Below, one piece after another: positions 11,432 through 20,672 of a stretch of 64,000 nt of DNA (positions within the stretch are counted from its first letter, which is position 1; each line of letters starts with the position of its first letter). The notes beneath the pieces were generated by a model that did not search any database, was not told the DNA's origin, and saw only the letters and a program-made list of their open reading frames with translations. The position numbers and the translations under genes were made by a program. Source of the DNA: Escherichia coli (GTDB lineage: Bacteria > Pseudomonadota > Gammaproteobacteria > Enterobacterales > Enterobacteriaceae). The stretch lies in NCBI RefSeq assembly GCF_003790525.1, contig NZ_CP033635.1; one strand, written 5' to 3'.

Positions 11432-12031
11432 ATGAACAAACACACCGAACATGATACTCGCGAACATCTCCTGGCGACGGGCGAGCAACTTTGCCTGCAA
11501 CGTGGATTCACCGGGATGGGGCTAAGCGAACTCCTAAAAACTGCTGAAGTGCCGAAAGGGTCCTTCTATCACTACTTTCGCTCTAAAGAAGCGTTTGGCG
11601 TTGCCATGCTTGAGCGCCATTACGCCGCATATCACCAGCGACTGACTGAGTTGCTGCAATCCGGCGAAGGTAACTACCGCGACCGCATACTGGCTTATTA
11701 CCAGCAAACACTGAACCAGTTTTGCCAACATGGAACCATCAGTGGTTGCCTGACAGTAAAACTCTCTGCCGAAGTGTGCGATCTGTCAGAAGATATGCGT
11801 AGCGCGATGGATAAAGGCGCTCGCGGCGTGATCGCCCTGCTCTCGCAGGCGCTGGAAAATGGCCGTGATAGCCATTGTTTAACCTTTTGTGGCGAACCGC
11901 TGCAACAGGCACAAGTGCTTTACGCACTGTGGCTGGGTGCGAATCTGCAGGCCAAAATTTCGCGCAATTACGAGCCACTGGAAAACGCGCTGGCACATGT
12001 AAAAACCATTATTGCGACGCCTGCCGTTTAG
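11432..12031 (+). CDS. nemR: TetR-family electrophile-sensing repressor
   Basis: 199 aa ORF MNKHTEHDTREHLLATGEQLCLQRGF... recognised as NemR. Confidence 0.93.
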   Translation: MNKHTEHDTREHLLATGEQLCLQRGFTGMGLSELLKTAEVPKGSFYHYFRSKEAFGVAMLERHYAAYHQRLTELLQSGEGNYRDRILAYYQQTLNQFCQHGTISGCLTVKLSAEVCDLSEDMRSAMDKGARGVIALLSQALENGRDSHCLTFCGEPLQQAQVLYALWLGANLQAKISRNYEPLENALAHVKTIIATPAV

Positions 12032-12067
12032 CAGGCATTTTTTATCACCAGACGACCGGGAGCCTTT

Positions 12068-13165
12068 ATGTCATCTGAAAAACTGTATTCCCCACTGAAA
12101 GTGGGCGCGATCACGGCGGCAAACCGTATTTTTATGGCACCGCTGACGCGTCTTCGCAGTATTGAACCGGGTGACATCCCTACCCCGTTGATGGCGGAAT
12201 ACTATCGCCAACGTGCCAGTGCCGGTTTGATTATTAGCGAAGCCACGCAAATTTCTGCCCAGGCAAAAGGGTATGCTGGTGCACCTGGCATCCATAGTCC
12301 GGAACAAATTGCCGCATGGAAAAAAATTACCGCTGGCGTTCATGCTGAAAATGGTCATATGGCCGTACAGCTGTGGCACACCGGACGCATTTCTCACGCC
12401 AGCCTGCAACCTGGCGGTCAGGCACCGGTAGCGCCTTCCGCACTTAGCGCGGGAACACGTACTTCTCTGCGCGATGAAAATGGTCAGGCGATCCGTGTTG
12501 AAACATCCATGCCGCGTGCGCTTGAACTGGAAGAGATTCCGGGTATCGTCAATGATTTCCGTCAGGCCATTTCTAACGCGCGTGAAGCCGGTTTTGATCT
12601 GGTAGAGCTCCACTCTGCTCATGGTTATTTGCTGCATCAGTTCCTTTCTCCTTCTTCAAACCATCGTACCGATCAGTACGGCGGCAGCGTGGAAAATCGC
12701 GCACGTCTGGTGCTGGAAGTGGTCGATGCAGGGATTGAAGAATGGGGTGCCGATCGCATTGGCATTCGCGTTTCGCCAATCGGTACTTTCCAGAACACAG
12801 ATAACGGCCCGAATGAAGAAGCCGATGCACTGTATCTGATTGAACAACTGGGTAAACGCGGCATTGCTTATCTGCATATGTCAGAACCAGATTGGGCGGG
12901 GGGTGAGCCGTATACTGATGCGTTCCGCGAAAAAGTACGCGCCCGTTTCCACGGTCCGATTATCGGCGCAGGTGCATACACGGTAGAAAAAGCCGAAACG
13001 CTGATCGGCAAAGGGTTAATTGATGCGGTGGCATTTGGTCGTGACTGGATTGCGAACCCGGATCTGGTCGCCCGCTTGCAACGCAAAGCTGAGCTTAACC
13101 CACAGCGTGCCGAAAGTTTTTACGGTGGCGGCGCGGAAGGCTACACGGATTACCCGACGCTGTAA
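12068..13165 (+). CDS. nemA: N-ethylmaleimide reductase (Old Yellow Enzyme family)
   Basis: 365 aa [31 protein letters not shown]... recognised as NemA. Confidence 0.93.
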
Positions 13166-13245
13166 TCCAACATTGCGAGCGGCGCAAAGCCGCCGCTATA
13201 CTAAAACAACATTTTGAATCTGTTAGCCATTTTGAGGATATAAAG

Positions 13246-13653
13246 ATGCGTCTTCTTCATACCATGCTGCGCGTTGGCGATCTGCAACGCTCCATCGATT
13301 TTTATACCAAAGTACTGGGCATGAAACTGCTGCGTACCAGCGAAAACCCGGAATACAAATACTCACTGGCGTTTGTTGGCTACGGCCCGGAAACCGAAGA
13401 AGCGGTGATTGAACTGACCTACAACTGGGGCGTGGATAAATACGAACTCGGCACTGCTTATGGTCACATCGCGCTTAGCGTTGATAACGCCGCTGAAGCG
13501 TGCGAAAAAATCCGTCAAAACGGGGGTAACGTGACCCGTGAAGCGGGTCCGGTAAAAGGCGGTACTACGGTTATCGCGTTTGTGGAAGATCCGGACGGTT
13601 ACAAAATTGAGTTAATCGAAGAGAAAGACGCCGGTCGCGGTCTGGGCAACTAA
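13246..13653 (+). CDS. gloA: glyoxalase I
   Basis: 135 aa [32 protein letters not shown]... recognised as GloA. Confidence 0.95.
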
Positions 13654-13662
13654 TCTCCTGCC

Positions 13663-13690
13663 GGGCGTGAACCCATCACGCCCGCATCTT
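13663..13690 (+). terminator. possible gloA terminator hairpin
   Basis: stem gggcgtga / tcacgccc with 5-nt loop starting 10 nt after gloA stop; weak T-tract. Confidence 0.4.
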
Positions 13691-13755
13691 TACTGCATCG
13701 ACAAGTAATATTTGTCATAATGCGCGCTGCAATTTATCCGTATTAAGAGAATCAG

Positions 13756-14403
13756 ATGTCCGATAACGCTCAACTTACCGGTCTGTGCGACCGTTTTCGT
13801 GGTTTTTATCCTGTTGTGATCGATGTTGAAACAGCCGGATTTAATGCCAAAACCGATGCGCTGCTTGAGATTGCCGCCATCACCCTGAAAATGGATGAAC
13901 AAGGCTGGCTGATGCCGGACACCACATTACATTTCCACGTCGAACCATTTGTCGGCGCAAATTTGCAGCCAGAGGCCCTCGCCTTCAACGGTATTGACCC
14001 GAACGATCCCGATCGCGGCGCGGTCAGCGAATACGAGGCGCTGCACGAAATTTTTAAAGTTGTACGTAAAGGCATTAAAGCGAGCGGCTGTAACCGCGCC
14101 ATTATGGTGGCGCACAACGCCAATTTCGATCACAGCTTTATGATGGCCGCCGCAGAACGCGCCTCACTGAAACGTAACCCGTTCCACCCTTTCGCCACTT
14201 TTGACACTGCTGCACTGGCCGGGCTGGCACTCGGACAAACCGTATTGTCAAAGGCTTGCCAGACCGCTGGCATGGACTTCGACAGCACCCAGGCGCACTC
14301 CGCGCTGTACGACACCGAACGCACTGCTGTGCTGTTTTGTGAAATCGTCAACCGCTGGAAACGTCTGGGAGGCTGGCCGCTACCTGCCGCCGAAGAGGTG
14401 TAA
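13756..14403 (+). CDS. rnt: RNase T
   Basis: 215 aa [32 protein letters not shown]... DEDD exonuclease, recognised as Rnt. Confidence 0.95.
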
Positions 14404-14495
14404 TCGAGTCGATGCCTGATGACATGCAATGATTCAGGCATCTATAGTGAGGCTATTCCACGCATCATGCATGATATTCACGGGGAATAGCGTTA

Positions 14496-17400
14496 ATGGC
14501 AGATAATCTAAACCCTTCATCGCCCCTGCCGGACGTGTTTTCACCGGCGACCCGCGACTGGTTTCTTCGCGCCTTTAAACAGCCGACCGCTGTCCAGTCG
14601 CAAACCTGGCATGTGGCGGCGCGAGGCGAACATGCGCTGGTGATTGCACCGACTGGCTCCGGGAAAACGCTGGCAGCATTTCTCTACGCCCTCGATCAGC
14701 TCTTCCGCGAAGGCGGCGAAGATACCCGCGAGGCGCATAAGCGTAAAACCTCACGCATTCTCTATATTTCACCGATCAAAGCTCTGGGCACCGACGTTCA
14801 GCGCAACTTGCAGATCCCGTTACAGGGTATTGCCGATGAACGGCGGCGGCGCGGCGAAACGGAAGTCAATCTTCGCGTGGGGATCCGTACTGGCGATACG
14901 CCTGCACAGGAACGCAGCAAACTCACCCGTAATCCGCCGGATATTCTGATCACCACACCCGAATCACTCTATCTGATGCTGACCTCCCGCGCGCGCGAAA
15001 CGCTACGCGGCGTCGAAACGGTAATTATTGATGAAGTCCACGCGGTAGCGGGCAGTAAACGTGGTGCGCATCTGGCGTTAAGTCTGGAGCGGCTCGATGC
15101 GCTGCTCCACACCTCAGCACAGCGAATTGGCCTTTCTGCCACTGTACGCTCAGCCAGCGATGTGGCAGCATTTCTTGGTGGCGATCGCCCGGTTACGGTA
15201 GTCAACCCGCCCACAATGCGCCATCCGCAGATACGGATTGTCGTACCGGTCGCCAATATGGATGATGTCTCATCGGTCGCCAGCGGCACCGGCGAAGACA
15301 GCCATGCCGGCCGAGAAGGCTCCATCTGGCCATATATTGAAACGGGTATCCTTGATGAAGTTTTGCGCCATCGCTCGACCATTGTCTTTACTAATTCACG
15401 CGGGCTGGCGGAAAAACTGACGGCACGATTAAATGAGCTTTACGCCGCTCGCTTACAGCGTTCCCCGTCTATCGCCGTTGATGCGGCCCATTTCGAGTCG
15501 ACCTCCGGCGCAACCTCTAACCGTGTACAAAGTAGCGACATTTTTATTGCCCGCTCACACCACGGCTCCGTCTCTAAAGAACAACGAGCAATCACCGAAC
15601 AGGCGCTGAAATCGGGTGAATTACGCTGCGTGGTCGCAACCTCCAGTCTCGAACTGGGGATTGATATGGGCGCGGTGGATCTGGTGATTCAGGTGGCAAC
15701 GCCGCTTTCTGTTGCCAGTGGGTTACAACGCATTGGACGTGCCGGACATCAGGTTGGCGGTGTATCTAAAGGGCTTTTTTTCCCCCGAACCCGGCGTGAC
15801 TTAGTCGATTCCGCAGTCATTGTAGAGTGTATGTTCGCAGGCAGGCTGGAAAACCTGACACCACCGCATAATCCACTCGACGTCCTTGCGCAGCAAACCG
15901 TTGCCGCCGCGGCGATGGATGCATTACAGGTAGACGAATGGTACTCCCGCGTACGCCGTGCCGCACCGTGGAAAGATCTGCCAGGACGTGTTTTTGACGC
16001 CACGCTGGATATGCTTTCCGGGCGCTATCCCTCTGGCGATTTTTCTGCTTTTCGCCCCAAACTGGTCTGGAACAGGGAGACCGGGATATTGACCGCCCGA
16101 CCTGGCGCTCAATTGTTGGCGGTTACCAGCGGCGGCACCATTCCGGATCGTGGCATGTATAGCGTGTTATTACCCGAAGGTGAAGAACAGGCCGGTTCGC
16201 GGCGGGTGGGTGAACTGGATGAGGAGATGGTATATGAGTCACGGGTGAACGATATTATCACTCTTGGCGCAACCTCATGGCGGATCCAGCAAATCACCCG
16301 CGATCAGGTGATTGTGACTCCTGCTCCAGGTCGTTCTGCCCGCCTTCCCTTCTGGCGTGGTGAAGGTAACGGACGTCCGGCAGAATTAGGCGAGATGATC
16401 GGCGATTTTCTCCATTTACTGGCGGATGGCGCGTTCTTTTCCGGGACTATTCCCCCGTGGTTGGCAGAAGAAAATACGATCGCCAATATTCAGGGGTTGA
16501 TTGACGAGCAGCGCAACGCGACGGGTATCGTTCCAGGTAGTCGTCATCTTGTCCTCGAACGGTGCCGTGATGAAATTGGTGACTGGCGTATTATTTTGCA
16601 CTCTCCCTATGGAAGACGGGTGCATGAACCCTGGGCGCTGGCGATTGCCGGGCGAATACATGCACTATGGGGCGCTGACGCGTCTGTGGTTGCCAGTGAT
16701 GACGGCATTGTTGCGCGCATTCCTGACACCGATGGTAAATTGCCTGATGCCGCGATTTTTTTGTTTGAACCAGAAAAGTTGCTGCAAATTGTCCGCGAGG
16801 CGGTAGGCAGCTCGGCACTTTTCGCCGCCCGTTTTCGCGAATGCGCCGCGCGGGCATTATTAATGCCGGGCCGCACGCCGGGCCATCGCACCCCGCTCTG
16901 GCAACAACGACTGCGCGCCAGTCAGTTGCTGGAAATCGCTCAGGGATATCCGGATTTTCCGGTCATTCTCGAAACCCTACGCGAATGTCTGCAAGATGTT
17001 TATGATCTTCCCGCGCTGGAACGTTTGATGCGTCGCCTGAACGGTGGCGAAATTCAAATATCCGATGTGACGACCACTACGCCCTCGCCTTTCGCCGCCA
17101 GTTTATTGTTCGGCTATGTCGCGGAATTTATGTACCAGAGCGACGCCCCGCTGGCAGAGCGCCGGGCATCCGTACTGTCGCTGGACAGCGAGTTACTGCG
17201 CAATCTACTCGGACAGGTCGAACCGGGGGAATTACTCGACCCGCAGGTCATTCGCCAGGTGGAAGAAGAGTTGCAACGACTGGCACCTGGCAGAAGAGCG
17301 AAAGGTGAAGAAGGATTGTTCGACCTGCTGCGCGAACTGGGGCCAATGACCGTTGAAGACCTGGCGCAACGGCATACAGGCAGCAGTGAAGAGATTGCGT

Positions 17401-19112
17401 CGTATCTGGAAAATCTTCTTGCAGTAAAACGAATCTTCCCGACGATGATTAGCGGGCAGGAGCGTCTTGCCTGTATGGATGATGCCGCCAGGCTGCGCGA
17501 TGCCCTCGGCGTACGACTACCAGAGTCACTGCCAGAGATTTATTTGCACCGAGTCAGTTACCCGCTTCGCGACCTCTTTCTGCGCTATCTCCGGGCTCAT
17601 GCTCTGGTCACGGCTGAACAACTGGCTCATGAGTTTAGTCTCGGTATTGCCATTGTCGAAGAGCAACTTCAGCAACTGCGCGAACAGGGTCTGGTGATGA
17701 ATCTGCAACAAGACATCTGGGTGAGCGATGAAGTATTTCGTCGTCTGCGTTTGCGCTCGCTGCAAGCCGCCAGAGAAGCGACACGTCCCGTTGCGGCCAC
17801 GACCTATGCGCGATTGCTGCTGGAACGTCAGGGCGTATTACCCGCCACCGATGGTAGCCCGGCACTCTTTGCCTCAACATCGCCAGGCGTTTATGAGGGC
17901 GTGGATGGCGTGATGCGGGTGATCGAACAGCTTGCAGGAGTCGGTTTACCCGCCTCACTCTGGGAAAGCCAGATCCTGCCTGCCCGCGTACGCGACTATT
18001 CGCCAGAAATGCTCGATGAATTACTGGCAACCGGAGCGGTTATCTGGTCGGGACAAAAAAAGCTGGGTGAAGATGACGGCCTGGTGGCACTGCATCTACA
18101 GGAATATGCCGCAGAATCGTTCACTCCCGCCGAAGCAGATCAGGCGAATCGTTCGGCGCTGCAGCAAGCGATAATCGCTGTTCTGGCTGACGGAGGAGCC
18201 TGGTTTGCACAACAAATCAGCCAACGGATATGCGATAAAATCGGCGAATCGGTTGATCCCTCGGCTCTGCAAGAGGCGTTATGGGCGCTGGTCTGGCAAG
18301 GCGTCATTACCAGCGACATTTGGGCACCGTTACGCGCCCTCACCCGTAGCAGTTCCAACGCACGCACCTCGACTCGCCGCAGTCACCGGGCTCGTCGTGG
18401 GCGTCCTGTCTATACGCAACCCGTCTCGCCGCTGGTATCTTACAACACACCAAAGCTGGCCGGACGCTGGTCGTTATTGCAGGTGGAGCCACTAAACGAT
18501 ACCGAAAGGATGCTGGCGCTGGCGGAAAATATGCTCGACCGCTACGGCATCATCAGTCGTCAGGCGGTGATAGCCGAAAATATCCCTGGCGGTTTTCCAT
18601 CGATGCAAACGCTTTGTCGAAGTATGGAAGACTCCGGGCGAATTATGCGGGGTCGTTTTGTAGAAGGTCTGGGTGGCGCGCAATTCGCTGAACGTCTGAC
18701 TATTGACCGATTGCGTGACCTGGCGACACAAACCGCGCAAACGCGCCACTATACACCAGTGGCGCTCTCCGCCAACGATCCGGCTAATGTGTGGGGAAAT
18801 CTTCTGCCCTGGCCTGCACATCCGGCAACGCTGGTTCCAACGCGTCGGGCGGGTGCGCTGGTGGTCGTTTCTGGCGGCAAATTGTTACTTTATCTGGCGC
18901 AAGGTGGCAAAAAAATGCTGGTCTGGCAGGAAAAAGAGGAATTACTCGCCCCAGAGGTTTTCCACGCGCTGACTACCGCACTGCGTCGCGAACCACGGCG
19001 GCGCTTTACGCTGACAGAAGTGAATGATCTACCAGTCCGACAAACGCCGATGTTTACGCTGCTGCGTGAGGCGGGATTTTCAAGTTCGCCACAAGGGCTG
19101 GATTGGGAATAG
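14496..19112 (+). CDS. lhr: large ATP-dependent helicase Lhr
   Basis: 1538 aa ORF; Walker A APTGSGKT, DEVH box, long C-terminal extension; recognised as Lhr. Confidence 0.93.
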   Translation: MADNLNPSSPLPDVFSPATRDWFLRAFKQPTAVQSQTWHVAARGEHALVIAPTGSGKTLAAFLYALDQLFREGGEDTREAHKRKTSRILYISPIKALGTDVQRNLQIPLQGIADERRRRGETEVNLRVGIRTGDTPAQERSKLTRNPPDILITTPESLYLMLTSRARETLRGVETVIIDEVHAVAGSKRGAHLALSLERLDALLHTSAQRIGLSATVRSASDVAAFLGGDRPVTVVNPPTMRHPQIRIVVPVANMDDVSSVASGTGEDSHAGREGSIWPYIETGILDEVLRHRSTIVFTNSRGLAEKLTARLNELYAARLQRSPSIAVDAAHFESTSGATSNRVQSSDIFIARSHHGSVSKEQRAITEQALKSGELRCVVATSSLELGIDMGAVDLVIQVATPLSVASGLQRIGRAGHQVGGVSKGLFFPRTRRDLVDSAVIVECMFAGRLENLTPPHNPLDVLAQQTVAAAAMDALQVDEWYSRVRRAAPWKDLPGRVFDATLDMLSGRYPSGDFSAFRPKLVWNRETGILTARPGAQLLAVTSGGTIPDRGMYSVLLPEGEEQAGSRRVGELDEEMVYESRVNDIITLGATSWRIQQITRDQVIVTPAPGRSARLPFWRGEGNGRPAELGEMIGDFLHLLADGAFFSGTIPPWLAEENTIANIQGLIDEQRNATGIVPGSRHLVLERCRDEIGDWRIILHSPYGRRVHEPWALAIAGRIHALWGADASVVASDDGIVARIPDTDGKLPDAAIFLFEPEKLLQIVREAVGSSALFAARFRECAARALLMPGRTPGHRTPLWQQRLRASQLLEIAQGYPDFPVILETLRECLQDVYDLPALERLMRRLNGGEIQISDVTTTTPSPFAASLLFGYVAEFMYQSDAPLAERRASVLSLDSELLRNLLGQVEPGELLDPQVIRQVEEELQRLAPGRRAKGEEGLFDLLRELGPMTVEDLAQRHTGSSEEIASYLENLLAVKRIFPTMISGQERLACMDDAARLRDALGVRLPESLPEIYLHRVSYPLRDLFLRYLRAHALVTAEQLAHEFSLGIAIVEEQLQQLREQGLVMNLQQDIWVSDEVFRRLRLRSLQAAREATRPVAATTYARLLLERQGVLPATDGSPALFASTSPGVYEGVDGVMRVIEQLAGVGLPASLWESQILPARVRDYSPEMLDELLATGAVIWSGQKKLGEDDGLVALHLQEYAAESFTPAEADQANRSALQQAIIAVLADGGAWFAQQISQRICDKIGESVDPSALQEALWALVWQGVITSDIWAPLRALTRSSSNARTSTRRSHRARRGRPVYTQPVSPLVSYNTPKLAGRWSLLQVEPLNDTERMLALAENMLDRYGIISRQAVIAENIPGGFPSMQTLCRSMEDSGRIMRGRFVEGLGGAQFAERLTIDRLRDLATQTAQTRHYTPVALSANDPANVWGNLLPWPAHPATLVPTRRAGALVVVSGGKLLLYLAQGGKKMLVWQEKEELLAPEVFHALTTALRREPRRRFTLTEVNDLPVRQTPMFTLLREAGFSSSPQGLDWE

Positions 19113-19120
19113 ATAAAGAA

Positions 19121-19148
19121 CTGACGGATGCCCGTTCGCATCCGTCAG
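19121..19148. terminator. bidirectional hairpin between convergent lhr and grxD
   Basis: 10-bp stem ctgacggatg / catccgtcag with 8-nt loop between the two stop codons. Confidence 0.55.
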
Positions 19149-19162
19149 TATTGCAGGACGGA

Positions 19163-19510
19163 TTATTCAGCGTCCGGCTCTTCAGACTTGTATTTAGCGG
19201 CAGTTTCTTTGATCAACTGCTGCAGTTCGCCACGCTGATACATTTCGATCACGATATCACAACCGCCGACCAGCTCGCCGTCAACCCACAGTTGCGGGAA
19301 GGTCGGCCAGTTAGCATATTTCGGCAGTTCCGCACGAATGTCCGGATTCTGCAGGATATCAACATAGGCAAAACGTTCGCCACATGCGGCAAGCGCCTGG
19401 ACTGCCTGGGCAGAGAAACCGCAGCTCGGCAGTTTCGGTGAACCTTTCATGTACAGCAGGATCGGGTTTTCAGCAATCTGGCGTTGGATTTTTTCGATAG
19501 TGGTGCTCAT
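19163..19510 (-). CDS. grxD: monothiol glutaredoxin 4
   Basis: 115 aa ORF with CGFS active site (MSTTIEKIQRQIAENPILLYMKGSPKLPSCGFS...). Confidence 0.95.
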   Translation of the reverse strand: MSTTIEKIQRQIAENPILLYMKGSPKLPSCGFSAQAVQALAACGERFAYVDILQNPDIRAELPKYANWPTFPQLWVDGELVGGCDIVIEMYQRGELQQLIKETAAKYKSEEPDAE

Positions 19511-19844
19511 TGTCTTGCTTCCTCAAACTTCTTTACGGCAGTAATCTGACATTGTAGCGGGTCAGTGCGGCATCGGAAAATAACATTTTCATCACGCTTT
19601 TGCTATTTTATCCCTTTGTTCTATTTGTTGCATTTCAAATATTCGTTTCTTCCCTTATGCACGGCAAACTGGCGTGTTTATAACCATTTTTAGCTTTCAC
19701 TGCTGCATTTTTTTGCGCTCGCCAACGAAACGTATTTTTTAACAATAAAAGCTATTAACTTTCTCTTCTTCTATGCATTAGAATCATCAAGTTTTGTAAA
19801 TCAGACGCAGGCATGATAGACCTGCCTTAACAGAGGGACGCTCA

Positions 19845-20672
19845 GTGGCGCGGATAAACCGTATTTCGATCACGCTCTGTGCTTTACTTTTTACCACCCT
19901 GCCTTTAACGCCTATGGCCCATGCTTCAAAGCAAGCCAGGGAGAGTTCTGCTACTACTCATATCACCAAAAAAGCAGATAAAAAGAAAAGCACGGCAACC
20001 ACCAAAAAGACCCAGAAAGCCAGCCAGAAAACAGCGAAAAAAGCCGCCAGTAAAAGTACGATCAAAGGCAAAACCGCTTCTTCCGTTAAAAAATCTTCCA
20101 TTACCGCTTCTAAAAACGCCAAAACTCGCAGCAAACACGCCGTCAATAAAACGGCCTCAGCCAACTTTACCGAAAAGTGTACCAAACGTAAGGGCTATAA
20201 ATCGCATTGTGTGAAAGTCAAAAATGCCGCGTCAGGAACCCTTGCCGACGCGCACAAAGCGAAGGTGCAAAAAGCCACGAAAGTGGCAATGAATAAACTG
20301 ATGCAGCAAATTGGTAAGCCATATCGTTGGGGCGGCAGCTCACCGCGTACCGGTTTTGATTGCAGCGGCCTGGTTTATTACGCTTATAAAGATTTGGTGA
20401 AAATTCGTATTCCGCGTACGGCGAATGAAATGTATCACCTGCGAGATGCAGCGCCAATCGAACGTAGTGAACTGAAAAACGGCGACCTGGTCTTTTTCCG
20501 TACTCAGGGACGCGGTACAGCCGATCATGTCGGCGTATATGTCGGCAACGGCAAATTTATTCAGTCACCGCGTACGGGTCAGGAAATTCAAATCACTTCT
20601 CTCAGTGAAGACTACTGGCAGCGCCACTATGTTGGCGCTCGCCGGGTAATGACCCCAAAAACACTTCGCTAA
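19845..20672 (+). CDS. mepH: NlpC/P60 peptidoglycan DD-endopeptidase
   Basis: ORF from GTG 19845 (275 aa): signal peptide, Lys/Thr/Ala-rich low-complexity linker, C-terminal NlpC/P60 domain (DCSGLV...H); recognised as MepH (YdhO); exact start uncertain. Confidence 0.85.
   Translation: MARINRISITLCALLFTTLPLTPMAHASKQARESSATTHITKKADKKKSTATTKKTQKASQKTAKKAASKSTIKGKTASSVKKSSITASKNAKTRSKHAVNKTASANFTEKCTKRKGYKSHCVKVKNAASGTLADAHKAKVQKATKVAMNKLMQQIGKPYRWGGSSPRTGFDCSGLVYYAYKDLVKIRIPRTANEMYHLRDAAPIERSELKNGDLVFFRTQGRGTADHVGVYVGNGKFIQSPRTGQEIQITSLSEDYWQRHYVGARRVMTPKTLR

What the first reader, a model, noticed from the sequence alone, without database searches (positions are those of the whole stretch)
14496..19112. 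Lhr: 1538-aa helicase whose C-terminal half is non-helicase sequence
The N-terminal part contains the superfamily-2 helicase motifs (APTGSGKT, DEVH), but more than 700 residues follow with no obvious helicase signature. rnt lies 92 bp upstream on the same strand, consistent with a shared transcript. My recollection is that an additional DNA-repair-type activity has been proposed for the C-terminal domain; I cannot verify this here.
Basis: partly seen in the sequence, partly recalled or inferred. Interest (0 to 1): 0.3.

Follow-up and report, generated by a model that had tools for sequence, protein, structure and literature searches.

The report
E. coli Lhr helicase, already characterised
This is the well-known E. 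coli lhr gene: a DNA-repair helicase fused to a folded C-terminal domain shaped like a DNA glycosylase.

Summary
The ORF at 14496-19112 (+) is real. It encodes 1538 aa and is 100% identical to lhr of E. coli SMS-3-5. rnt ends 92 bp upstream on the same strand.

Residues 1-~880 are the Lhr helicase core: SF2 motifs, a winged helix (WH) and the DEAD_assoc domain. Residues ~881-1538 are the Lhr C-terminal domain (CTD).

- Asp-1536 is Asp in 0 of 90 diverse homologues (mostly Arg). It is kept only in the genus Escherichia and one metagenomic relative.
- The AlkZ/YcaQ catalytic Q-x-Q/D motif is absent.
- A salt-bridge pair of the tetramer interface is conserved.
- Four of five sampled homologues sit next to a stand-alone glycosylase gene.
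- 1040 of 5425 complete E. coli genomes carry one shared 4.4-kb deletion of lhr.
- Where lhr is kept, the CTD is under purifying selection (dN/dS 0.10-0.14).

The uracil activity may therefore be lineage-specific or secondary.

The parts
13756..14403 (+). rnt (ribonuclease T), the gene immediately upstream on the same strand
   Evidence: ORF. TIGR01298 RNaseT 383 bits against a cutoff of 246. Annotated rnt in NC_010498.
14404..14495 (+). 92-bp rnt-lhr spacer. It holds a sigma-70-like site at 14419-14448 (ATGACA-18-TATAGT) and two hairpins. The second hairpin pairs the GGGGAA stretch just upstream of the lhr ATG. No T-run terminator is present.
   Evidence: promoter-like site, 10/12; no terminator-like site in the spacer. 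(sequence). (MFE -29.4 kcal/mol, z -2.3).
14496..19112 (+). lhr CDS, 1538 aa plus stop codon
   Evidence: NF007284 3396 bits.
14586..15149 (+). RecA-like domain 1 (Pfam DEAD, aa 31-218), with motif I APTGSGKT (aa 51-58, nt 14646-14669) and motif II DEVH (aa 179-182, nt 15030-15041)
   Evidence: PF00270, E 7e-32. (motif positions).
15543..15746 (+). RecA-like domain 2 (Pfam Helicase_C, aa 350-417), with motif VI QRIGRAGH at aa 411-418
   Evidence: PF00271, E 1.6e-13..
15831..16343 (+). Lhr-core winged-helix domain (WH_Lhr, aa 446-616). It contains W595, the counterpart of the M. smegmatis W597 that stacks on the tracking strand.
   Evidence: PF19306, E 8e-47. (GATSWRIQ). PMC9841417 for the role of W597.
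16530..17096 (+). Lhr-core C-domain (DEAD_assoc, aa 679-867), the end of the helicase core
   Evidence: PF08494, E 2.6e-62. Homology to 5V9X over aa 8-876.
17136..19109 (+). Lhr C-terminal domain (aa 881-1538): five winged-helix modules plus a beta-barrel. The last three winged helices and the barrel have the AlkZ/YcaQ (HTH_42) fold.
   Evidence: - Pfam WH2_Lhr 912-1016, WH3_Lhr 1130-1206, WH4_Lhr 1334-1416.
- 7LHL E 1.7e-129.
- AlphaFold pLDDT 92.5, pTM 0.87.
- Foldseek gives the same order.
- dN/dS 0.10-0.14.
18648..18815 (+). Most conserved block of the CTD (aa 1385-1440): R1385, Q1396 (100%), R1407 (100%), D1428-P-A (96-99%), G1434, W1439, P1440 (100%). Its role is unknown.
   Evidence: 90 homologues at 31-52% identity. 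In a weak alignment, D1428, P1429 and W1439 line up with the LSPFDP..W stretch of YcaQ.
19101..19103 (+). Codon of Asp-1536, the residue published as the catalytic base of the uracil glycosylase activity. It is the third residue from the C-terminus, in the last beta-strand.
   Evidence: - (..PQGLDWE*).
- PMC10953399.
- Asp in 0 of 90 homologues: R 49, V 19, T 5, Q 4, S 3.
- Kept in all four Escherichia species loci.
14597..18984 (+). The 4388-bp segment of lhr (codon 34 to codon 1497) that is missing, with one shared junction, in 1040 of 5425 complete E. coli genomes. The junction lies at a 10-bp near-repeat, GTCGC(A/G)AACC.
19120..19149 (-). GC-rich 12-bp-stem hairpin between the convergent lhr and grxD genes. 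On the minus strand it scores as a terminator-like site for grxD. It probably also ends the lhr transcript, which is an inference.

Best explanation
The ORF is lhr, the 'large helicase-related' DNA-repair protein of E. coli.

**Helicase core.** Residues 1-~880 form the Lhr-Core motor: two RecA-like domains with SF2 motifs, a winged helix, and the DEAD_assoc domain. This motor is published as an ATP-driven 3'-to-5' single-strand DNA translocase and helicase.

**C-terminal domain.** Residues ~881-1538 form a separately folded domain of five winged helices and a beta-barrel. Its last three winged helices plus the barrel have the fold of the AlkZ/YcaQ (HTH_42) crosslink glycosylases, but they lack that family's catalytic Q-x-Q/D motif. 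In the M. smegmatis orthologue this domain assembles the protein into a tetramer that is needed for repair in vivo. For the E. coli protein, one laboratory has reported a uracil-DNA glycosylase activity that needs Asp-1536.

**What is shown and what is inferred.**
- Shown here: identity, domain anatomy, fold, family-wide conservation pattern, purifying selection, and gene order.
- Taken from papers: translocase and helicase activity, oligomeric state, uracil excision, and the H2O2 and AZT sensitivity of the lhr deletion.
- Inferred: the family-wide role of the CTD is oligomerisation and positioning at damaged forks alongside a glycosylase. The uracil activity of the E. coli protein, if physiological, is a lineage-specific addition, because its key Asp exists only in Escherichia.

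lhr is probably transcribed with rnt, and possibly also from a promoter in the 92-bp spacer.
For: - **Identity:** 100% DNA identity to annotated lhr. NF007284 scores 3396 bits against a cutoff of 1496. PDB 7LHL aligns to aa 8-1477 and 5V9X to aa 8-876.
- **Anatomy:** Pfam domains and motif positions.
- **Selection:** dN/dS is 0.035-0.049 for the core and 0.10-0.14 for the CTD across three Escherichia comparisons.
- **Tetramer interface:** The M. smegmatis R1286-D1237 salt bridge maps to E. coli R1324-D1274. Each residue is 86% conserved in 90 homologues.
- **Published biochemistry:** EcoLhr is an ATPase, translocase and helicase, and is oligomeric (PMC8053096). Uracil excision, D1536A, and H2O2 and AZT sensitivity are in PMC10953399. 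The CTD and tetramer are required in vivo in M. smegmatis (PMC9841417).
- **Gene context in relatives:** Fpg/Nei-type genes lie directly downstream in three loci, and a purine DNA glycosylase gene is adjacent in Stenotrophomonas.
Against: - **The uracil glycosylase step rests on one paper.** The assays used enzyme in 4- to 64-fold molar excess over substrate, and the protein was made in ung+ E. coli Rosetta 2. I found no mention of a Ugi or ung-minus control in the text.
- **Asp-1536 is not conserved.** It is not Asp in any of 90 homologues.
- **The AlkZ/YcaQ catalytic elements are missing.** The catalytic motif falls on G1150-L-P1152 and the DNA-binding loop falls on a gap. The alignment behind this is weak (E 0.029).
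- **The Shuman laboratory did not see the relevant activities.** It reported no DNA binding by the M. smegmatis CTD, no evidence of glycosylase activity, and a presumptive DNA site buried in the tetramer.
- **lhr is dispensable in many strains.** It is deleted in 19% of complete E. coli genomes and carries a nonsense codon in an E. albertii draft genome.
- **Conflicting older phenotype (my recollection, unverified).** Reuven et al. 1995 found normal H2O2 and UV sensitivity in lhr mutants, which conflicts with the 2023 phenotype.
- **Cotranscription with rnt was not tested here.**
Confidence: 0.85

Rival explanations
1. The CTD is essentially non-catalytic. It is an oligomerisation and DNA-structure-recognition scaffold with a degenerate glycosylase fold, which holds four helicase motors together and works with separate glycosylases. 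On this view the reported uracil excision is adventitious, very weak, or due to a co-purifying enzyme.
For: - D1536 is absent from 90 of 90 homologues.
- The Q-x-Q/D motif and the DNA-binding loop of true HTH_42 glycosylases are missing.
- An interface salt bridge is conserved.
- Four of five sampled homologues have an adjacent stand-alone glycosylase gene.
- The M. smegmatis CTD does not bind DNA and shows no glycosylase evidence.
- The assays used excess enzyme made in an ung+ host.
Against: - D1536A abolished the activity in two independent constructs (CTD alone and full length), while DNA binding and unwinding stayed normal.
- Activity was higher on forked substrates and with the helicase domain attached, which a free contaminant would not explain.
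- The lhr deletion is H2O2-sensitive.
- The invariant residues Q1396, R1407, D1428 and W1439 suggest a function beyond the mapped interface.
Confidence: 0.35
2. The CTD is a working interstrand-crosslink glycosylase of the AlkZ/YcaQ type, delivered to stalled forks by the helicase.
For: - Mycobacterial lhr is induced by mitomycin C and protects against it and against cisplatin.
Against: - The catalytic Q-x-Q/D motif is absent.
- Pfam AlkZ-like scores 18.7 bits, below the 25.9 cutoff, and the match lies on a different part of the CTD.
- The DNA-binding loop region aligns to a gap.
- The E. coli lhr deletion is not mitomycin-sensitive.
- E. coli already has YcaQ.
Confidence: 0.05
3. lhr is a decaying, functionally irrelevant gene in E. 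coli, and its long C-terminal region is evolutionary baggage.
For: - One shared 4.4-kb deletion is present in 1040 of 5425 complete genomes, including Nissle 1917 and ST95 strains.
- An E. albertii draft genome has TGG to TGA at W595.
- Close relatives were found only within Escherichia.
Against: - Where the gene is intact, both halves are under clear purifying selection: dN/dS 0.04-0.05 for the core and 0.10-0.14 for the CTD, at dS up to 0.6.
- 4382 genomes keep a full-length copy.
- The purified protein is an active helicase.
Confidence: 0.05

Closest known systems
Mycobacterium smegmatis Lhr (PDB 5V9X core; 7LHL CTD tetramer)
   Same: - Same architecture from end to end. phmmer aligns aa 8-1477, and the CTD alone gives E 1.7e-129.
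- SF2 motifs and the tracking-strand Trp are conserved.
- The main interface salt bridge is retained as R1324-D1274.
   Different: - The genomic partner differs: rnt lies upstream in E. coli, whereas nei2 lies downstream in mycobacteria.
- Interface residues H1199 and R1206 correspond to D1232 and Q1239 in E. coli.
- The C-terminal tail is ..GLDWE in E. coli, against the family consensus ..GLRLR.
- Phenotypes differ: H2O2 and AZT sensitivity but not mitomycin in E. coli, versus mitomycin, cisplatin and psoralen in M. smegmatis.
HTH_42 interstrand-crosslink glycosylases AlkZ (5UUJ) and YcaQ/AlkX (9ZD6)
   Different: - Only 12-15% identity.
- No Q-x-Q/D catalytic motif.
- The DNA-binding loop region is shorter by about 13 residues in a weak alignment.
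- The Pfam AlkZ-like match is below threshold.
- Lhr is fused to a helicase, has two extra winged helices, and is oligomeric rather than monomeric.
Short Lhr-Core helicases (archaeal Lhr, Pseudomonas putida Lhr-Core) and Hel308/Ski2-like helicases
   Same: The N-terminal ~880 aa match: NF010338 575 bits, TIGR04121 426 bits, and Hel308 hits in the PDB.
   Different: These proteins end after the core and lack the 660-aa CTD altogether.
Family-1 uracil-DNA glycosylase (E. coli Ung)
   Same: Only the reported chemistry is shared: excision of uracil, with an Asp proposed as general base.

Membership tests
Long bacterial Lhr (Lhr-Core + Lhr-CTD) | SF2 helicase motifs I, II (DExH), III and VI in two RecA-like domains | tested here: met
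   APTGSGKT at 51, DEVH at 179, SAT at 214, QRIGRAGH at 411. Pfam DEAD and Helicase_C.
Long bacterial Lhr (Lhr-Core + Lhr-CTD) | Lhr-specific core accessory domains (WH_Lhr and DEAD_assoc) | tested here: met
   PF19306 E 8e-47 and PF08494 E 2.6e-62. 5V9X E 5.6e-293.
Long bacterial Lhr (Lhr-Core + Lhr-CTD) | C-terminal domain of five winged helices plus a beta-barrel, homologous to 7LHL | tested here: met
Long bacterial Lhr (Lhr-Core + Lhr-CTD) | Score above the curated equivalog cutoff | tested here: met
   NF007284 scores 3396 bits against a cutoff of 1496, matching 1-1538 of 1538.
Long bacterial Lhr (Lhr-Core + Lhr-CTD) | CTD-mediated homo-oligomer (tetramer interface residues) | tested here: inconclusive
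   Counterparts of R1286, D1237, G1149, G1201 and S1288 are retained in E. coli, but H1199 becomes D1232 and R1206 becomes Q1239. No multimer model could be made. EcoLhr is oligomeric in solution according to PMC8053096.
Long bacterial Lhr (Lhr-Core + Lhr-CTD) | ATP-dependent 3'-to-5' ssDNA translocase and helicase activity | not testable with these tools
   Published for EcoLhr (PMC8053096 abstract).
HTH_42 / AlkZ-YcaQ crosslink glycosylases | Fold of three winged helices plus a beta-barrel | tested here: met
HTH_42 / AlkZ-YcaQ crosslink glycosylases | Catalytic (Q/H)-aliphatic-(Q/D) motif in WH1 | tested here: not met
   YcaQ Q45-I-D47 aligns to Lhr G1150-L-P1152, and no QxQ or QxD occurs in aa 1143-1158 (weak alignment, E 0.03-0.04). 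Three papers state the same.
HTH_42 / AlkZ-YcaQ crosslink glycosylases | Minor-groove DNA-binding loop with a conserved Tyr in the beta-sheet subdomain | tested here: inconclusive
   The YcaQ loop region falls on a 13-residue gap after Lhr W1439-P1440 in a low-confidence hhalign alignment. The loop is defined in PMC13303869. No coordinates were available to superpose.
HTH_42 / AlkZ-YcaQ crosslink glycosylases | Pfam PF06224 (AlkZ-like) above the gathering score | tested here: not met
   18.7 bits against a cutoff of 25.9, and the match lies on aa 927-1108 rather than the structurally equivalent region. YcaQ itself scores 266.6 bits.
HTH_42 / AlkZ-YcaQ crosslink glycosylases | Unhooking of interstrand crosslinks | not testable with these tools
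   The E. coli lhr deletion is not mitomycin-sensitive (PMC10953399).
Uracil-DNA glycosylase superfamily (families 1-6) | UDG alpha/beta fold and UDG Pfam signature | tested here: not met
Uracil-DNA glycosylase (as an activity of Lhr-CTD) | Proposed catalytic Asp-1536 conserved across the Lhr-CTD family | tested here: not met
   Asp in 0 of 90 homologues: R 49, V 19, T 5, Q 4, S 3, E 1. Present in four Escherichia species loci and in the metagenomic relative P0002.
Uracil-DNA glycosylase (as an activity of Lhr-CTD) | Uracil excision in vitro | not testable with these tools
   Reported by one laboratory (PMC10953399). No independent confirmation was found in the library.

The most novel reading that the evidence does not exclude
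[quoted passage not shown] In most other bacteria the AlkZ-fold CTD is catalytically silent. There it serves as a tetramerisation platform that brings the helicase together with a separately encoded glycosylase: Nei2 in actinobacteria, an AAG-type enzyme in Stenotrophomonas. E. coli, which has no glycosylase gene beside lhr, would then have internalised that partner function. The phylogroup-B2-like lineage later discarded the whole gene.
Probability: 0.2. Interest if true: 0.5.

Novelty: already known. Interest (0 to 1): 0.2.

Why it matters
As a scan finding it adds nothing new. lhr was named in 1995, its helicase activity and CTD structure were published in 2021, and the extra glycosylase activity in 2023.

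What matters to specialists is the status of that last claim. The family-wide invariant residues lie elsewhere (Q1396, R1407, D1428, W1439, P1440). Relatives usually sit next to stand-alone glycosylase genes. About a fifth of complete E. coli genomes, including Nissle 1917 and ST95 strains, lack the gene through one shared deletion.

These points turn 'what is the Lhr C-terminal domain for?' into specific experiments. They also supply natural knock-out strains in which to run them.

Tried and rejected
- **YcaQ homologue search.** I ran it to build an HTH_42 profile. It returned only near-identical E. coli sequences (99-100%), so it was useless for a profile and cost one capped search.
- **hhalign in global mode.** It gave a meaningless end-to-start alignment. 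Local mode with a two-sequence template gave a collinear but statistically weak alignment (E 0.029, probability 1.7%). I use it only as support for what three papers already state.
- **Genome-contig scan with the last 240 aa.** It found only four loci, all Escherichia. The taxonomic depth of D1536 therefore had to come from the representative-protein search and cluster names.
- **Apparent second deletion form with a 945-bp insert (L003).** This is poly-C assembly junk and has no match in the collection. I rejected it as an artefact.
- **Rfam.** No RNA family hit in 13600-19900.
- **Literature.** Reuven et al. 1995 (PMC177343) is not held, so cotranscription and the early phenotypes rest on my memory. 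Searches for rnt-lhr operon data and for a report of the B2 deletion found nothing relevant.
- **Horizontal transfer.** lhr has 56.7% GC against 50.2% for the window, but its GC3 (55%) is like that of rnt (59%). I did not pursue this as evidence for transfer.
- **Model coordinates.** They are not exposed by the tools, so I could not place D1536 or the invariant residues relative to the cleft or the tetramer interface.

Full report
**1. The observation**

The window holds one ORF from 14496 to 19112 on the + strand, encoding 1538 aa. No overlapping ORF exceeds 137 aa. SAT is at aa 214 and QRIGRAGH at aa 411. rnt occupies 13756-14403 on the same strand, so the gap is exactly 92 bp.

The region is 100% identical to E. 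coli SMS-3-5, where the genes are annotated nemR-nemA-gloA-rnt-lhr, followed by convergent grxD, then mepH and sodB.

One correction is needed. Pfam places WH_Lhr at aa 446-616 and DEAD_assoc at aa 679-867. Both are part of the crystallised helicase core, since 5V9X aligns to aa 8-876. The non-helicase part is therefore about 660 aa (881-1538), or 43% of the protein.

**2. What it is**

The protein scores 3396 bits over its full length against the NCBIfam equivalog NF007284, whose cutoff is 1496. It aligns to M. smegmatis Lhr (7LHL) from aa 8 to 1477. The CTD alone hits only 7LHL in the PDB by sequence (E 1.7e-129).

I collected CTD homologues with an exhaustive search of 1.84 billion representatives. 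This gave 6577 hits at E <= 1e-3 and 706 at E <= 1e-30. I aligned 90 that cover the whole CTD at 31-52% identity.

With that alignment, AlphaFold gives a confident model: mean pLDDT 92.5 and pTM 0.87. It consists of successive three-helix/two-strand winged-helix units and a terminal beta-rich module. Only two loops have low confidence, at about aa 1121-1132 and in the basic stretch around aa 1291-1310.

- Foldseek gives the same order.
- No uracil-DNA glycosylase fold and no SecB appear among the listed hits.

The CTD is thus a folded module with the AlkZ fold. It is not disordered sequence.

**3. What the literature says**

- Warren et al. 2021 showed that EcoLhr is an ATPase, a 3'-to-5' translocase and a helicase. 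Its activity resides in the 877-aa core, and the full-length protein is oligomeric. They solved the M. smegmatis CTD as a tetramer of five winged helices plus a beta-barrel with AlkZ homology. [quoted passage not shown]
- Warren et al. 2023 showed that the CTD, and tetramer formation, are needed for crosslink repair in M. smegmatis. They stated that there was no evidence for a CTD glycosylase (PMC9841417).
- Buckley et al. 2023 then reported that the E. coli Lhr CTD (aa 876-1538) and full-length Lhr excise uracil from single-stranded, duplex and forked DNA. D1536A abolishes this without affecting DNA binding or unwinding. 8-oxoguanine is not a substrate. An lhr deletion is sensitive to H2O2 and AZT but not to mitomycin C (PMC10953399).

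I found no independent confirmation of the uracil activity in the held library.

**4. Tests of the published mechanism**

*(a) Conservation of D1536.* The family C-terminus reads A-G-F-x-x-(T)-P-(R)-G-L-(R)-(L)-(R). G1527 is 98% conserved and G1534 is 91% conserved, which anchors the alignment. In E. coli the sequence is AGFSSSPQGLDWE.

- Position 1536 is Asp in none of the 90 homologues: R 49, V 19, T 5, Q 4, S 3, E 1.
- Asp is kept in Escherichia sp. E1V33, a divergent E. coli, E. whittamii and E. albertii, and in a 67%-identical metagenomic fragment.
- The next relatives have other residues. Stenotrophomonas (52% identity) has Ser. Sodalis and Mixta fragments (about 50%) follow, and then actinobacteria at 40-45%.

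*(b) What is conserved instead.* Invariant or nearly invariant residues lie elsewhere:
- G949, R1093, R1164 and W1325.
- A dense block at R1385, Q1396 (100%), R1407 (100%), D1428-P-A, G1434, W1439 and P1440 (100%).

*(c) The AlkZ/YcaQ catalytic elements.* A profile alignment to E. coli YcaQ plus T. fusca AlkX is collinear over about 330 columns but weak (E 0.029).
- It places the catalytic Q45-I-D47 of YcaQ on Lhr G1150-L-P1152.
- It places the minor-groove DNA-binding loop on a 13-residue gap (loop defined in PMC13303869).
- Pfam AlkZ-like scores below threshold, at 18.7 against 25.9 bits.

*(d) The tetramer interface.* The published M. smegmatis contact residues map to E. coli G1180, D1232, G1234, W1236, Q1239, D1274, R1324 and S1326. 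The R1286-D1237 salt bridge corresponds to R1324-D1274, and each residue is 86% conserved across the family.

*(e) Selection.* Against three Escherichia lineages (dS 0.08-0.6), dN/dS is 0.035-0.049 for the core and 0.10-0.14 for the CTD. The CTD evolves about 2.5 times faster than the core but is clearly constrained.

*(f) Assay conditions.* In the 2023 paper, protein was at 50-800 nM against 12.5 nM substrate. It was expressed in ung+ Rosetta 2 cells. I found no mention of Ugi or of an ung-minus host in the text.

**5. Context**

The rnt-lhr spacer has no terminator-like site. It holds a sigma-70-like site (ATGACA-18-TATAGT, 10/12) at 14419-14448 and two hairpins. The second hairpin pairs the purine-rich stretch just upstream of the ATG. 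Read-through from rnt is plausible, and a separate promoter is possible. Neither was tested. A 12-bp-stem hairpin at 19120-19149 separates lhr from convergent grxD.

I sampled five homologues outside Escherichia:
- Three have an Fpg/Nei-type gene directly downstream.
- The Stenotrophomonas gene is convergent with a PF02245 purine DNA glycosylase gene 25 bp away.
- One has no glycosylase gene nearby.

E. coli has no glycosylase gene beside lhr. The sample is small, but it fits the idea that long Lhr proteins usually work with a separate glycosylase.

**6. Population genetics**

Of 5425 complete E. coli genomes with any match, 4382 have full-length lhr. About 1040 retain only 229 bp, the first ~111 nt joined to the last ~126 nt.

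All 1040 share one junction, between window 14597-14606 and 18985-18994 at the near-repeat GTCGC(A/G)AACC. The deletion removes 4388 bp and shifts the frame. Carriers include Nissle 1917, an ST95 strain and an O2:K2:H1 strain, which suggests phylogroup B2. Phylogroup was not typed.

The E. albertii NBRC 107761 draft genome has TGG to TGA at W595, the counterpart of the helicase-essential Trp. lhr is therefore dispensable in major lineages, yet it is selected where it is retained.

**7. Verdict**

The identity and architecture are certain and already known. My best reading has three parts:
- The helicase core is a 3'-to-5' motor.
- The CTD is a degenerate AlkZ-fold module whose family-wide role is oligomerisation and engagement of damaged forks together with a glycosylase.
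- The uracil glycosylase activity of the E. coli protein, if physiological, is a lineage-specific addition that depends on an Asp found here only in Escherichia and one metagenomic relative.

The main rival (0.35) is that the reported activity is adventitious. The finding merits a low interest score. The caveats above are the only new content.

Noticed in passing
window 14597-18984; L002 3501-3729 (NZ_CP109921): 1040 of 5425 complete E. coli genomes share one 4388-bp frameshifting deletion of lhr (codon 34 to codon 1497) at the 10-bp near-repeat GTCGC(A/G)AACC. It leaves a 229-bp remnant between rnt and grxD. Carriers include Nissle 1917, an ST95 strain and an O2:K2:H1 strain, so the lineage is probably phylogroup B2, which was not typed. 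No report of this deletion was found in the held library.
   Followed up: partly
L008 4322-4324 (E. albertii NBRC 107761, NZ_BBMY01000162): lhr carries TGG to TGA at codon 595, the Trp equivalent to the helicase-essential W597 of M. smegmatis Lhr. The rest of the gene stays in frame at 89% identity. This is either a recent pseudogene or a sequencing error in a draft assembly.
   Followed up: partly
window 14448-14495: The second hairpin of the rnt-lhr spacer pairs GGCUAUUCC with GGGGAAUAGC, covering the purine-rich stretch 9-14 nt upstream of the lhr ATG. The whole spacer folds at -29.4 kcal/mol (z -2.3). This could limit lhr translation.
   Followed up: no
L009 10819-11436; L011 11597-12370; L013 8835-9728; L014 5656-6495: Long Lhr homologues outside Escherichia often sit beside stand-alone DNA glycosylase genes. 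Three loci have an Fpg/Nei-type gene directly downstream. In Stenotrophomonas a PF02245 purine DNA glycosylase gene is convergent, 25 bp away. One sampled locus (L012) has none.
   Followed up: partly
L003 3606-4550 (NZ_CP116411, strain HH45): An apparent 945-bp insert between the two lhr remnants is almost pure poly-C with scattered G. It is an assembly artefact, not a second allele.
   Followed up: yes
window 19107-19109: The last residue of Lhr is Glu in this strain (..GLDWE*). It is Gly (..GLDWG*) in the four other Escherichia loci and in several metagenomic fragments. This is a strain-level substitution two residues after the proposed catalytic Asp.
   Followed up: no
window 14496-19112: E. 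coli lhr has no close relative outside the genus in a scan of one genome per species. The next best proteins are 67% identical (metagenomic), 52% (Stenotrophomonas), about 50% (Sodalis and Mixta fragments) and 40-45% (actinobacteria). Gene GC is 56.7% against 50.2% for the window. The patchy distribution hints at old horizontal transfer or widespread loss in Enterobacterales.
   Followed up: partly
window 11432-13653: Just upstream of rnt-lhr lie nemR-nemA-gloA (electrophile and methylglyoxal detoxification). Downstream lie grxD and sodB, and sodC is nearby in the reference record. lhr therefore sits in a neighbourhood rich in redox and electrophile stress genes. Whether this is meaningful is unknown.
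   Followed up: no
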